44,448 bases of DNA from a virus (taxonomy: Duplodnaviria > Heunggongvirae > Uroviricota > Caudoviricetes): IMG/VR virus record IMGVR_UViG_2851949629_000004; one strand, given 5' to 3'. This document shows positions 1-3,000 of the stretch, piece by piece. A program made the position numbers. The stretch's first letter is position 1; each line of letters opens with the position of its first letter.

Positions 1-3000
1 TTAACCCTCTGCCGCAGAGTCCGTATTCTGAGAGGCTCGCCAACGGTAAGCAAAGGCAAAAAGCGTCAGATCCAGCTCGAAGGTCTCGTGCATTCCATCC
101 ACGGACACGGAGGTACCCAGTAATCCCTTCCGAACCAGGGACTCCACACCAGTTTGCGGATCATCAAGCCGGTTCATTTGTCCCCATGTCATCACAGCAC
201 CGCCGAATGCTACAAAGTGCTGTACCACGTTTTTTTCACTGTCCGTAAGTGAATCATAAAGTGCGGCCAACTGCTGCCTTGAAGCAGCTTTTCCTTTCTG
301 GGCAAGAAGACGCTGATGCCATCCTCCGGCAATGATCTTGACAATCGGGAATGGAATAATAAATGCGAACAGCGTCAGGACATAGTCGTGAAGGAGCAGA
401 TAACAGCTCATTCCGGCAAGTCCCGCGACAAATATGGCGACATTAATGCCGAAATCCTTCTCCGTATAAACCCTGTCGAACAGTTTTCCAAGAAATTCAG
501 TCATTGATTTACTCCCTACATGCTATGTCGCACCGCCCCAAATCAAAAGAGCGAATGGTTCAGTGTCGGCAGTATTCCCAATGATTAGCCAACATGCGCC
601 CGGCATCATACCAGTTTTCAGTCAACACCAAGCCGGCAATAAGAGAGAACTCTTGATCCATCATGGCAATCAGATCTCCAAACAACACTGACAGAAATTC
701 CTGGATGAAGTTGCTTTTCGATTTACCGGCTACGCTGACCTAAGTGGTGTCGCCGTATTTATCAGTTTATTAACAGCCCCTCATAGCCCAGTACCTGTGA
801 ACATTGCTCAGTCACTAGACAAACCGCTGTGTGGTGACGGTCTTCCGGCCATTCGGTTCCCACTGTATTGAAGCATGCCAGGCTATTTCAATATCGCTAT
901 GCCGTGGCATCATTTAACCCCTTGTAATTCATCGTCATAACTGTAGTAATGTTTTCCGCTTCAGGGAAAAAATAGCATCCAACCGCAGCACGTTCTTGCA
1001 TACGACGTGCTGCGGCATAATCCCAATGATTACTCCCTGACAGGGTTCGTAGGCCACTCAATATCAGGTGCAGTTGATGTATCAACACGGTTCAGCAACA
1101 CCCGATACTTCTTCCAGGCTTCCAGCAACGAGTTTTCTTCCTCCGTTGCGATCTCCAGATCTACAGCATCCTGAAGCGGCGCTATATGCTCACTGGCTAC
1201 CTGCATCAGGCTGTTTTTTGTTTCTTCCGCCTCCCGGATCCGGAACAGTTTTTCTGCTTCCGTATCCTTCACCCAGGCTGTGCCGTTCCACTTCTGAAAC
1301 TCCCCTTCCGGGGATAACCAGGTGACATTTTCCGGTAACGGACCGAGTTCAGAAATAAATAACGCGTCCCCTGACGCTACGTCATAAACCGTTTTACCCC
1401 GATGGTCTTCATCGAGATGCCACGATGCCTTATCACTGTTGAAAACAGCCACAAAGCCAGCAGGAATATCTGGTGGTGCAATATCGGTACTGTTTGCTGG
1501 CAGACCTGTATGAGGCGGAATATATGCGTCACCTTCACCAATAAATTCATTAGTTCCGGCCAGCAGATTATAAATTTTTATGGTCCGTGGTTGTTCACTC
1601 ATTCTGAATGCCATTATGCAAGCCTCACAATATAGTTAAATGCGATGTTTTTGACGGTGTTTTCCGCGTTACCAGCAGCGTTAACGGTGATGGTGTGTCC
1701 ATGTGAACCAATCGCAACGGAGTGCGTATGAGCACCAATACCGACAGTATGCGCGTGTGCACCTGCAGATGCTGCTGTGCCGGACAGTGAATGGCTATGA
1801 TTACCATCTGTACTGGTATTCGCTAACCACCCCGTAGACATACCTACTGAGCCTTGTACACCCCAGGTATTTTGACCTGAGCTTGTATAACCATATTGAT
1901 AAGTATCTTTAAAAACACTGGGGTTAAATCGACGGCCATCTCTATGGCTGTGATTACCAGCTGCATTCGTGCTGCCACTTAAACTATGGGTATGCGCACC
2001 AGTGTTATTCGTGGATTTAGTGCCGTAATCAAACGACGATGTGGTTTTCGTCCCCAAATCCGTACTGGATGCGCTGGCGCTGTGGGTATGCGATTTAATG
2101 CCATCCTGTTCCTGAGACAATACGGCACGACCACTGGCGGGCTTGCCCTTAATCGTCCAGCCACGCAAATCAGGGATCACGCCTGACGGATAAGCGGCAG
2201 CAAGTTTCGGGTAGGCAGATTTGTCAAAAGTCTGCCCCTGCATCAGGGCATAACCAGACGGAACGGTATCTGATGGCCACGGGATTGGTGCGCCGACTGG
2301 GTAGCTTTCTGGTGGAAGATTTTTCGAGGTATAAACTTCTGCCCAGTCTTCCTCAAAACCATAGCCATCTCTTGAAGAACGGTAGAACAGACCACCATTT
2401 CTGTAATGCGCCTTCATCTGCAGGGTCCGGCAACTTCCGACTCCGGTATAGAAGTTAACCAGAATATAGCTGTCGCCAGAGCGGGTGACATTGTAAGCGC
2501 CTGATTCGGCATTCCAGGGAACGCCACCATCCGCATCGGCATATGTATCCGTTGCCCTTCTGGCAAAAGCAGCCACATGCGCGGCGGTTAAAGTAATATC
2601 TTTGGAACCATCAAACTCAACACCAGAAACCAGTCTTGGCGTTTGCAGCTTTGTTGCTGTTAATGCATTACCGTTCAGACTTGCGGACAGTTTGGTTCCA
2701 ATAACCAGTTCGCCGGTTGCGTTATCAATAGCAAACGGTCTTAATGTATTCCAGCCACCATAAACATCACCTTGATTGGTAAGCAGCAGGTAAGTTTTAG
2801 CGCCATCATTACGCCATAATGCCCCATACTCCCCACCTATCATTCGAATCTGATTACCACCACGCGCTACAATTTCGTCTGTGGCAAAAAGTTTTTTGCA
2901 CGACAAGTTATCGTTAACGATTAACGAATGAGACTCATAAAAACCACGCCCACTCTTAAAATCAAGGATAACGTCCGCCGCGATACATTCAGTCGCCGGA

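What the first reader, a model, noticed from the sequence alone, without database searches (positions are those of the whole stretch)
1..1029. Cargo beyond tfa: membrane-protein ORF preceded by about 525 bp of degraded coding sequence
After the tail fiber assembly gene there is a 525-bp stretch with no ORF of 60 aa or more. It contains stop-interrupted fragments in shifting frames, for example ...VAGKSKSNFIQEFLSVLFGDLIAMMDQEFSLIAGLVLTENWYDAGRMLANHWEYCRH on the minus strand at about 735..557. A complete 167-aa ORF with a strong AGGGAG SD and two predicted N-terminal TM helices follows. This looks like the remnant of a decayed gene next to an intact small membrane protein; the tail-distal prophage end is a known site for exclusion and conversion genes.
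Basis: partly seen in the sequence, partly recalled or inferred. Interest (0 to 1): 0.5.

Follow-up and report, generated by a model that had tools for sequence, protein, structure and literature searches.

The report
SieB-like prophage gene beside gene scars
Just past the tail-fibre genes of this E. coli lambda-like prophage sits an intact small membrane protein distantly related to the phage exclusion protein SieB, preceded by leftovers of three different genes; it is a fairly ordinary prophage cargo locus, though the protein family is absent from defence catalogues.

Summary
Window 1..504 (-) is a complete 167-aa ORF with AGGGAG 7 nt before the ATG and two N-terminal hydrophobic helices. 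Positions 505..1029 hold no ORF longer than 42 aa.

The 525-bp gap is scar tissue from three unrelated genes, not one decayed gene:
- 940..975 (+): the last 11 codons and stop of a ybcY-type methyltransferase.
- 827..913 (-): the first 29 codons of a second tail-fibre-assembly gene (tfaX type).
- 563..733 (-): the middle of a 194-aa ribbon-helix-helix-like gene. This gene is intact directly upstream of the ORF's homolog in Cronobacter and has relatives on about 1000 enterobacterial plasmids.

The 167-aa protein is under purifying selection (dN/dS about 0.2). It has a membrane hairpin and a cytoplasmic MarR-like winged helix. Its C-terminal domain is a remote homolog of P22/lambda SieB (hhalign 95%), although it scores below Pfam's SieB cut-off.

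Homologs sit after the tail-fibre genes of P2-like phages (the Z/fun locus), next to Pycsar on a plasmid, and beside RM, CBASS and DRT genes across phyla.

Most likely it is a stand-alone SieB-like abortive-infection or exclusion gene. That function is inferred, not shown.

The parts
1..504 (-). Intact 167-aa ORF: N-terminal two-helix membrane hairpin, long linker helix and a C-terminal MarR-like winged-helix domain. It is a remote SieB-superfamily member (RefSeq WP_029402452 type, 'hypothetical protein').
   Evidence: - ORF.
- Close family of 25 proteins; 136 cluster representatives.
- dN/dS 0.16-0.24.
- AlphaFold2 model, mean pLDDT 71, about 80-91 per 10-residue block over residues 81-150.
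- Foldseek hits against the PDB are all MarR-family regulators.
- Pfam SieB 13.4 bits, below the 26-bit cut-off; 26 of 62 wider-family members hit SieB, best E 3.6e-8.
- hhalign against P22/lambda/673R7 SieB: 95.3%, E 2.1e-8 over the C-terminal domain.
512..517 (-). Shine-Dalgarno AGGGAG, 7 nt before the ATG.
   Evidence: Read directly from the sequence. AGGGAG or AAGGAG is conserved at the same place in homolog loci.
563..733 (-). Pseudogene remnant: the central part (about aa 35-100 of 194) of a ribbon-helix-helix-like gene, closed by a stop at 560..562. The N-terminal 34 codons and C-terminal 94 codons are missing.
   Evidence: - tblastx and tblastn to Cronobacter L011 5369..5953: 49% identity over the whole alignment, E 1e-19 to 3e-20.
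- 301 plasmid records match the fragment.
- The intact protein matches 1031 plasmid records.
- The intact homolog gives a weak FitA-like RHH hit, E 0.013, below the cut-off.
740..826 (.). 87 bp of unknown origin between two remnants.
   Evidence: No DNA or protein match outside the 37 genomes and phage Ayreon that carry the whole cassette.
827..913 (-). First 29 codons of a second tail-fibre-assembly gene (tfaX type); homology stops abruptly at 827.
   Evidence: - About 90% nucleotide identity to roughly 3,860 E. coli genomes and to phages 2G7b, ev243 and PhiR29_1, where it is the 5' end of an annotated tfa gene.
- MMPRHSDIEIAWHASIQWEPNGRKTVTTQ in the window versus MLPQHSDIEIAWYASIQQEPNGWKTVTTQ in PhiR29_1.
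940..975 (+). Last 11 codons (TVVMFSASGKK) and TAG stop of a ybcY-type class I SAM-dependent methyltransferase. The rest of the gene (about 663 bp) has been cleanly deleted.
   Evidence: Alignment with PhiR29_1 and 2G7b: identical on both sides of a 663-column gap that holds the 669-bp gene.
982..1016 (-). GC-rich hairpin (12-13 bp stem) just after the tfa stop, followed by a U-run at 972..967. It is a likely terminator shared by the convergent tfa and ybcY genes.
   Evidence: RNA fold -31.3 kcal/mol, z = -3.7, 1 of 200 shuffles folds as well. It is conserved in PhiR29_1 and 2G7b.
1030..1614 (-). Tail fibre assembly gene tfa (194 aa), the last late gene; context only.
   Evidence: Pfam Caudo_TAP, E 6e-45.

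Best explanation
**Setting.** The window begins in the accessory ('b-region') end of a lambda-like prophage integrated between prfC and yjjG.

**How the locus arose.** The ancestral arrangement downstream of tfa was the common one: tfa, hairpin, convergent ybcY methyltransferase, then a second tfa (tfaX), as in DLP12-type, PhiR29 and 2G7b phages. Two events reshaped it.
- A deletion of about 663 bp removed ybcY except its last 36 nt.
- A foreign cassette replaced everything beyond codon 29 of tfaX. The cassette carried an RHH-like gene followed by a SieB-like gene, the order still intact in Cronobacter. The RHH-like gene has since lost both ends, leaving a 57-codon core.

The result is one intact gene preceded by three scars.

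**The intact gene.** It encodes a 167-aa inner-membrane protein. Both termini are probably cytoplasmic, judged from four K/R residues and no acidic residues just after the second membrane helix. The cytoplasmic C-terminal domain is a winged helix homologous to the C-terminal domain of SieB from P22 and lambda.

**Inferred mechanism.** The gene is expressed from the prophage. The protein detects a product or the DNA of a superinfecting phage through its winged-helix domain. It then shuts the cell down through its membrane hairpin. This is abortive infection of the SieB type, in which macromolecular synthesis stops midway through the lytic cycle.

**Shown versus inferred.** Shown: the anatomy, the origin of the remnants, purifying selection, remote homology to SieB, and the defence-hotspot contexts. 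Inferred: expression in the lysogen, topology, the trigger, and the abortive outcome.

**Confidence.** The single figure of 0.55 blends two parts: the locus history and SieB-superfamily homology at about 0.85-0.9, and the exclusion or abortive-infection function at about 0.5.
For: **Locus history**
- The alignment shows the clean ybcY deletion and the tfaX breakpoint at 827; annotations of the comparison phages are.
- The RHH-like remnant matches the gene that lies directly upstream (48-nt gap) of the 70%-identical homolog in Cronobacter.

**A real gene**
- dN/dS is 0.16-0.24 against ten homologs.
- 57 invariant columns among 13 family members that go down to 56% identity to the window protein.

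**Link to SieB**
- 8 of 13 close members hit PF14163 (best E 1.4e-4), and 26 of 62 wider members do (best E 3.6e-8).
- Weak hits to the PHROG SieB/Esc families.
- hhalign of the wider family against P22 + lambda + 673R7 SieB: 95.3%, E 2.1e-8 over residues 74-147.
- A collinear full-length alignment with lambda SieB at 46% probability.
- The same layout: hydrophobic N-terminus and a 'SLTxxE...LxxxGxL' C-terminal domain.

**Context**
- In P2-like phages the homolog lies between the tail-fibre genes H/G and the sheath gene FI. PMC13586616 names the P2 Z/fun locus as a site of antiviral defences; placing Z/fun between G and FI is my own knowledge.
- On a Pantoea plasmid it directly follows a Pycsar system.
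- It lies near HEPN-RES, AAA_15/AAA_21, PDC-S31 and a Gabija-like pair.
- Neighbours of wider-family members in 13 genomes of many phyla include type I and IIG RM, CBASS, DRT UG22, mad2 and PbeA.
- The SieB phenotype is described in PMC10883804.
Against: - The window protein itself scores below Pfam's SieB gathering cut-off (13.4 versus 26 bits).
- It has no PADLOC or NCBIfam hit.
- The full-length profile match to lambda SieB reaches only 46% probability.
- The gene is not in the immunity region, where P22 and lambda carry sieB.
- There is no conserved internal start like the one that gives P22 Esc; M32 varies.
- No promoter stands out: 2 promoter-like sites against 2.7 expected.
- A hairpin separates the gene from tfa, so expression in the lysogen is unproven.
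- A winged helix could equally mean a DNA-binding regulator.
- Defence-island association is circumstantial.
Confidence: 0.55

Rival explanations
1. The 167-aa protein is a membrane-tethered transcription regulator or lysogenic-conversion factor. Its winged helix binds DNA to control host or prophage genes, and it has no role in excluding phages.
For: - The C-terminal domain matches only MarR-family DNA-binding regulators in the PDB and wHTH/TrmB/MarR-like viral proteins in BFVD.
- There is no PADLOC hit.
Against: - The fold matches are weak (E 5e-3 or worse, TM about 0.35-0.4).
- The best sequence-profile link is to SieB, not to regulators.
- The gene travels alone between unrelated elements with no conserved target operon next to it.
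- It repeatedly lands in defence hotspots.
Confidence: 0.15
2. The ORF is a tail-fibre accessory or receptor-related function, because it follows tfa in both lambda-like and P2-like phages.
For: It sits directly downstream of a Caudo_TAP gene in the window and in the P2-like contig L023, where the upstream gene is a Pfam-confirmed Caudo_TAP. L025 has the same ORF layout, but its genes were not scanned.
Against: - It is present in 1 of 50,697 phage records.
- It is absent from thousands of prophages that share the same tfa flank.
- Homologs occur on plasmids, in RIT-like elements and in chromosomal islands without tail genes.
- A cytoplasmic winged helix on a membrane hairpin is not a virion-assembly architecture.
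Confidence: 0.04
3. The upstream stretch is not just scar tissue. The 42-aa ORF (560..688) and the 63-aa ORF (897..1088), both annotated as genes in phage Ayreon, or an RNA from this region, are functional, for example as a truncated RHH-derived partner of the membrane protein.
For: - Ayreon annotates both ORFs as CDS.
- The RHH-like gene neighbours effector-like genes elsewhere: a RES NAD+ phosphorylase and an S-4TM effector on a Klebsiella plasmid, and the SieB-like gene in Cronobacter. This suggests a regulator or antitoxin role.
Against: - The remnant lacks the whole predicted RHH strand and first helix and the C-terminal half.
- All other homolog loci examined here, outside the Cronobacter and window-type ones, lack any RHH-like gene.
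- The 63-aa ORF overlaps tfa out of frame and runs through the hairpin.
- All 37 genomes are about 99-100% identical here, so selection cannot be read.
- No Rfam family reaches its threshold in 505..1029.
Confidence: 0.08
4. The 167-aa ORF is functional but blocks DNA entry (SieA, Sim or Imm type) rather than causing abortive infection.
For: It is a small inner-membrane protein encoded by a prophage, like P22 SieA (PMC10883804).
Against: - There is no sequence link to SieA.
- Almost the whole soluble part is predicted to be cytoplasmic (positive-inside), which leaves a two-residue periplasmic loop to meet an incoming phage.
- The homology is to SieB, which acts after entry (PMC10883804).
Confidence: 0.1

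Closest known systems
SieB (superinfection exclusion protein B) of phages P22 and lambda; Pfam PF14163
   Same: - Size (167 aa versus 179-192 aa).
- A hydrophobic N-terminal part followed by a soluble C-terminal domain with the shared 'SLTxxE ... LxxxGxL' pattern.
- Profile-profile homology of the C-terminal domain at 95%.
- Carried by temperate phages as a non-essential gene.
   Different: - It scores below Pfam's cut-off and is not detectable by BLAST.
- It sits after tfa at the prophage end, not between N/24 and ral in the immunity region.
- There is no conserved internal Esc-type start.
- The family also lives outside phages, in many phyla.
- The phenotype is untested.
Cargo of the P2 Z/fun locus (between tail-fibre genes H/G and sheath gene FI), named as a site of antiviral defences in P2-like phages (PMC13586616); related P2/P4 hotspots in PMC9122126
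   Same: A 64-66% identical homolog occupies exactly this locus in P2-like contigs L023 and L025. In L023 it lies next to a NERD-domain gene. In the window the gene likewise follows the tail-fibre assembly gene.
   Different: The window is a lambda-like siphovirus prophage, not P2-like. Neither paper mentions SieB, and no match to this protein's accession numbers was found in the paper library.
The tfaD-ybcY-tfaX arrangement of the defective prophage DLP12 and of phages PhiR29_1, 2G7b and ev243 (the DLP12 part is my own knowledge; the phage part comes)
   Same: The same tfa 3' flank and hairpin, the same ybcY 3' end, and the same tfaX 5' end at about 90-99% nucleotide identity.
   Different: Here ybcY is deleted and tfaX is cut after 29 codons. 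The alpha/beta-hydrolase and ompT cargo that follows in those phages is replaced by the RHH-remnant and SieB-like cassette.
Phage 'morons': independent cargo genes inserted between conserved phage genes
   Same: - The gene is non-essential and patchily distributed.
- It sits at the late-operon end behind a hairpin.
- Ayreon annotates a bidirectional terminator about 115 nt beyond its stop, outside the window.
   Different: No promoter could be identified, and GC content does not differ from the flanks (0.46-0.53).

Membership tests
SieB (Pfam PF14163) | Score at or above the curated gathering cut-off of the family HMM. | tested here: not met
   The window protein scores 13.4 bits, E 0.06, against a cut-off of 26. 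Relatives do better: 8 of 13 close members at E up to 1 (best 1.4e-4) and 26 of 62 wider members at E up to 0.01 (best 3.6e-8). I therefore call it a remote homolog at superfamily level, not a Pfam-defined member.
SieB (P22/lambda sensu stricto) | Profile-profile homology to experimentally defined SieB proteins. | tested here: met
   The wider family against P22 + lambda-type + 673R7 SieB gives hhalign probability 95.3%, E 2.1e-8, over 68 C-terminal columns. The full-length collinear alignment to lambda-type SieB reaches only 46%, E 2e-4.
SieB (P22/lambda sensu stricto) | Architecture: a protein of about 160-200 aa with N-terminal membrane segments and a C-terminal soluble domain. | tested here: met
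   Hydropathy of the window protein and of lambda SieB, the AlphaFold2 model and the alignment.
SieB (P22/lambda sensu stricto) | Position in the immunity region between N/gene 24 and ral, transcribed against pL from its own promoter. | tested here: not met
   The gene lies downstream of tfa at the prophage end. P22 and lambda carry sieB next to 24/N. No lambda-type SieB is found elsewhere in the window.
SieB (P22/lambda sensu stricto) | An in-frame internal start giving Esc (P22: codon 25), with an antisense sas RNA. | tested here: inconclusive
   P22 esc is sieB minus its first 24 codons. The only nearby internal Met in the window protein (M32) is I, V or L in relatives. An antisense RNA cannot be assessed from sequence, and Rfam finds nothing in 1..504.
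SieB (P22/lambda sensu stricto) | Phenotype: aborts the lytic growth of superinfecting phages. | not testable with these tools
   This needs phage challenge of a lysogen or a clone.
MarR-type winged helix-turn-helix | Winged-helix fold of the soluble domain. | tested here: inconclusive
   The top 50 Foldseek PDB hits are nearly all MarR-family, but with E 5e-3 to 4e-2 and TM 0.32-0.40. The model's per-block pLDDT is 80-91 over residues 81-150. DNA binding and dimerisation were not tested.
Known defence systems (PADLOC-DB 2.0) | A match to any catalogued defence protein model. | tested here: not met
   No hit for the 13 close members or the window protein. Canonical SieB proteins have no usable model in that database either.
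Tail fibre assembly protein (Caudo_TAP), remnant at 827..913 | Homology to an annotated tfa gene. | tested here: met
   90.6% nucleotide identity over 117 bp to the 5' end and upstream flank of the second tfa of PhiR29_1, 2G7b and ev243. Only 29 codons remain, so it is a remnant and not a member gene.
ybcY-type class I SAM-dependent methyltransferase, remnant at 940..975 | Homology to the annotated gene. | tested here: met
   The 36 nt are identical to the 3' end of the 669-bp gene in PhiR29_1 and 2G7b; the remainder is absent (annotation).
Ribbon-helix-helix (FitA-like, PF22513), ancestor of the remnant at 563..733 | An RHH domain scoring above the Pfam cut-off. | tested here: not met
   The intact Cronobacter homolog scores 15.9 bits, E 0.013, against a cut-off of 27. 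A CopG regulator in the PDB matches at E 0.58. 'RHH-like' is a lead, not a classification. The window remnant lacks that N-terminal part anyway.

The most novel reading that the evidence does not exclude
The family typified by this ORF is an uncatalogued, single-gene, SieB-related abortive-infection defence. It moves as a unit of about 0.7 kb between lambda-like and P2-like prophages, plasmids and chromosomal defence islands, and it is spread across many bacterial phyla. The membrane hairpin would be the effector and the winged helix the phage sensor. If so, the decades-old and mechanistically unexplained SieB would be one branch of a widespread bacterial immune family.
Probability: 0.4. Interest if true: 0.55.

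Novelty: new variant of a known kind. Interest (0 to 1): 0.35.

Why it matters
- **SieB.** SieB has been known since the 1970s, yet how it works is still not understood (PMC10883804). A divergent, compact relative offers a second, independent entry point to the mechanism. It travels alone, sits in recognised defence hotspots of two phage types, and has relatives beside RM, CBASS, DRT and Pycsar systems in distant phyla. It is also a candidate entry for defence catalogues, which currently lack SieB altogether.
- **Prophage evolution.** The scar-tissue part is a clean worked example of how the tail-distal end of lambdoid prophages turns over by deletion and cassette replacement.
- **Caveat.** None of this is surprising to a phage biologist, and no function has been shown.

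Tried and rejected
- **One ancestral gene for all of 505..1029.** Rejected: the pieces match three unrelated genes on two strands.
- **Fragment derived from the Raoultella upstream gene (267 aa) or the RIT-element gene (154 aa).** No similarity.
- **Homology of the remnant continuing past its stop into the ORF start** (tblastn extends to 476). Judged unconvincing, since there are only scattered identities after EYCR.
- **Promoter search.** Two consensus-like sites against 2.7 expected by chance. A TAGCAT motif recurs upstream in several loci, but its spacing to any -35 element and to the ribosome-binding site is poor. No claim is made.
- **PADLOC and NCBIfam.** No useful hits for the family.
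- **Structure libraries.** BFVD and PDB Foldseek gave only weak winged-helix matches. The AFDB50 library was unavailable. PDB sequence searches found nothing significant.
- **Genome-contig scans.** The first scan, with the close family, found no relatives. An attempt with the 62-member alignment had no usable motif.
- **Canonical lambda-type sieB elsewhere in the window.** None.
- **Literature.** No paper was found for the protein accessions.
- **Source genome.** The window is not in the E. coli complete-genome set; the best match is about 97% identical and mosaic.
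Full report
**Setting**

The window runs from the stop codon of the 167-aa ORF (base 1) to the start codon of a tyrosine integrase (43225..44448, -). It therefore covers almost a whole lambda-like prophage.

In related E. coli genomes the same element lies between prfC and yjjG. The tail genes J, lom, stf (1134 aa in the window) and tfa are on the minus strand. Positions 1..1029 are thus the tail-distal accessory end, equivalent to the lambda b region.

Phage Ayreon (MF807953) is the only one of 50,697 phage records with this stretch, at 99.5% identity. 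Only 37 of 5,426 complete E. coli genomes carry at least 80% of it.

**Check of the observation**

Everything described is there. Details are in the observation check. The lack of long ORFs in 525 bp is not remarkable by chance alone. Homology is what shows that the stretch is decayed coding sequence.

**What the 525 bp are**

Aligning the window with phages PhiR29_1 and 2G7b shows the common ancestral order. In gene direction this is tfa, a GC-rich hairpin, a convergent ybcY-type SAM methyltransferase, then a second tfa (tfaX type) (annotations). From my own knowledge, this is also the DLP12 order tfaD-ybcY-tfaX.

The window is identical or nearly identical to these phages over 940..1100 and about 90% identical over 827..943. 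A 663-column gap lies between the two blocks and holds the methyltransferase gene. What remains is as follows.

- **940..975 (+):** the last 11 codons and stop of the methyltransferase (TVVMFSASGKK*).
- **827..913 (-):** the first 29 codons of tfaX. The window reads MMPRHSDIEIAWHASIQWEPNGRKTVTTQ, against MLPQHSDIEIAWYASIQQEPNGWKTVTTQ in PhiR29_1. Homology ends sharply at 827.
- **982..1016 (-):** the hairpin, which folds at -31.3 kcal/mol (z = -3.7). It is followed by a U-run and is probably the terminator shared by tfa and ybcY.
- **739..563 (-):** It has no match in phages other than Ayreon. It does match an intact 194-aa ORF in Cronobacter sakazakii that lies 48 nt upstream of that organism's homolog of the 167-aa gene.
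  - Identity is 49% over the whole alignment and 62% over the best 37 residues.
  - It covers residues 35-100 of the 194-aa protein.
  - There is one in-frame indel of 10-11 codons.
- **740..826:** no match anywhere else.

The intact 194-aa protein begins with a sequence that looks like a ribbon-helix-helix. The supporting hits are weak: FitA-like, E 0.013, below the cut-off, and CopG, E 0.58.

Relatives of the 194-aa protein are on 1031 plasmid records, mostly conjugative. The window fragment alone hits 301 of them. On a Klebsiella plasmid the gene sits between an S-4TM pore-forming effector and a RES NAD+ phosphorylase.

In the window the gene has lost its first 34 and last 94 codons.

**The intact gene**

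The close family has 25 members in Enterobacterales, all unnamed and without Pfam domains. A profile search of 1.8 billion cluster representatives finds 136, of which 79 have E up to 1e-10. Nearly all are 140-175 aa.

Relatives at 37-46% identity occur in many lineages:
- Shewanella, Azonexus, Nitrosomonadales and Alphaproteobacteria;
- Planctomycetes, Gemmatimonadota and Acidobacteriota;
- Sulfurovaceae.

Pairwise dN/dS against ten homologs is 0.16-0.24, so the gene is maintained by selection.

The AlphaFold2 model has mean pLDDT 71, and 80-91 per 10-residue block over residues 81-150. It shows two hydrophobic helices, a long helix and a helix/strand domain. Foldseek matches that domain only to MarR-family winged-helix regulators, and weakly.

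Four K/R residues and no acidic residues follow the second hydrophobic helix. By the positive-inside rule this places the soluble domain in the cytoplasm; this is an inference.

**Relation to SieB**

- The window protein hits Pfam SieB at 13.4 bits, below the 26-bit cut-off.
- 8 of 13 close relatives and 26 of 62 wider relatives hit it, with best E-values of 1.4e-4 and 3.6e-8.
- The PHROG SieB/Esc families appear weakly.
- Canonical SieB proteins are themselves very divergent. Lambda SieB does not find P22 SieB by tblastn.
- A profile of P22 SieB, lambda-type SieBs and a third type (phage 673R7) matches the wider family at 95.3% probability, E 2.1e-8. This covers the C-terminal domain, query residues 74-147.
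- Against lambda-type SieB alone, the whole length aligns collinearly at 46%.
- Members that score 130+ bits with the window's own profile also match the canonical-SieB profile.

I conclude that the protein is a remote SieB-superfamily homolog with the same architecture. It is not a member by Pfam's threshold, and it differs in three ways:
- It is not in the immunity region.
- It has no conserved Esc-type internal start.
- Its family is not confined to phages.

**Context as evidence of function**

- In two P2-like viral contigs a 64-66% identical homolog lies right after the tail-fibre genes H and G and before the sheath and tube genes. The L023 genes were confirmed with Pfam; L025 rests on ORF layout only. 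This is the Z/fun locus, which PMC13586616 names as a site of antiviral defences in P2. In L023 the homolog is beside a NERD-domain gene.
- On a Pantoea plasmid it directly follows a Pycsar pair.
- In Cronobacter it is near HEPN-RES.
- In Edwardsiella it lies between int/xis and an AAA_15/AAA_21 gene.
- In Raoultella it follows a PDC-S31 candidate defence gene, and a Gabija-like pair is nearby.
- In two metagenomic contigs it sits in an element with three recombinase-like genes and umuDC.
- 89 ORFs lie within 4.5 kb of wider-family members in 13 diverse genomes. Their PADLOC matches at E up to 1e-8 include type I and IIG RM, CBASS (cyclase, TRIP13, SAVED-TIR), DRT UG22, mad2 and PbeA.

The upstream neighbour differs in almost every locus, and only Cronobacter keeps the RHH-like gene. 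The gene therefore appears to work alone.

**Mechanism proposed**

I propose a prophage-expressed, membrane-anchored sensor-effector of the SieB type. SieB stops macromolecular synthesis midway through the lytic cycle of superinfecting phages (PMC10883804). How it does so is unknown.

For this protein I infer that the winged helix senses a phage component and that the hairpin perturbs the membrane. No step of this has been shown. Expression in the lysogen is also unshown: no promoter stands out, and a hairpin lies between tfa and the gene.

**Verdict**

The locus is a normal product of prophage-end turnover.

The protein is a new variant of a known kind. It is a divergent SieB relative in an unusual position, with a wide and defence-associated family that PADLOC does not cover. 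Interest is moderate to low until a phenotype is shown.

Noticed in passing
window 1073..1271 (-): Rfam family IS009 (RF02111, listed as an E. coli sRNA gene) matches at 223 bits, well above its gathering score of 117. The match lies entirely inside the tfa coding sequence (1030..1614). The 'sRNA' family therefore seems to model the conserved 3' part of tail-fibre-assembly genes and their remnants.
   Followed up: no
window 573..587 and 1018..1032: A 15-nt direct repeat (TATTCCCAATGATTA and TAATCCCAATGATTA, 14 of 15 identical), 445 bp apart. One copy abuts the tfa stop codon and the other lies near the end of the RHH-like remnant. About 0.06 such pairs are expected by chance in 1.7 kb. It could be a recombination microhomology or a coincidence.
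   Followed up: partly
window about 697..708, compared with L004/L005 (tfaX of 2G7b and PhiR29_1): A 12-nt identity (AATTCCTGGATG; protein IQEF in both, in the same frame) links the RHH-like remnant to the tfaX gene of 2G7b just beyond the point where the window's tfaX homology stops. The junction is not at this site, so it is probably chance. It is unexplained.
   Followed up: no
window 39171..41599 (-): A complete IS66-family element (the HTH_Tnp_1, TnpB_IS66 and DDE_Tnp_IS66 ORFs) is inserted near the integrase end. Next to it is a 272-aa ORF (42256..43074, -) with no Pfam or PADLOC hit. The related prophage in strain CH4797 carries a dGTPase-family gene at the corresponding place, of a kind I recall as anti-phage. 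This suggests a second variable cargo site.
   Followed up: partly
L011 5369..5953; L044, L045 (plasmids): The 194-aa RHH-like protein family, whose remnant is in the window, occurs on 1031 plasmid records, 854 of them conjugative, and is always annotated as hypothetical. On a Klebsiella IncF plasmid it lies between an S-4TM pore-forming effector and a RES NAD+ phosphorylase. On an IncI plasmid it lies near DUF3800 and DUF4238 genes. It may be a regulator or antitoxin-like partner of effector genes.
   Followed up: partly
L013, L014, L023, L024, L025 (about 200 nt upstream of the homolog): In the subfamily at 61-66% identity, about 200 nt upstream of the gene are conserved across quite different hosts and elements (Sodalis chromosome, Edwardsiella prophage, P2-like phages). 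The mobile unit therefore includes an upstream non-coding part, possibly the promoter. The window's subfamily has the RHH-like remnant there instead.
   Followed up: partly
L013 6777..7694 (-), L046 2849..3766 (-), L024 6204..7130 (-): A convergent ORF of about 305 aa with no annotation lies just downstream of the homolog in three otherwise different loci. It may be a co-travelling partner in that subfamily. It is absent downstream of the window-type gene, where two small convergent ORFs of 120 and 42 aa lie instead, outside the window (L001 5303..5847).
   Followed up: no
L007 compared with L008/L009 (Raoultella-type loci): The 267-aa gene upstream of the homolog is itself deleted in one genome, down to its last 36 codons. 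This shows that the position just upstream of this gene family is repeatedly hit by deletions.
   Followed up: partly
window 1 and 44448: The window starts exactly at the stop codon of the 167-aa ORF and ends exactly at the integrase start codon. The terminator of the ORF, the attachment site and the outermost prophage genes therefore lie outside the window.
   Followed up: yes
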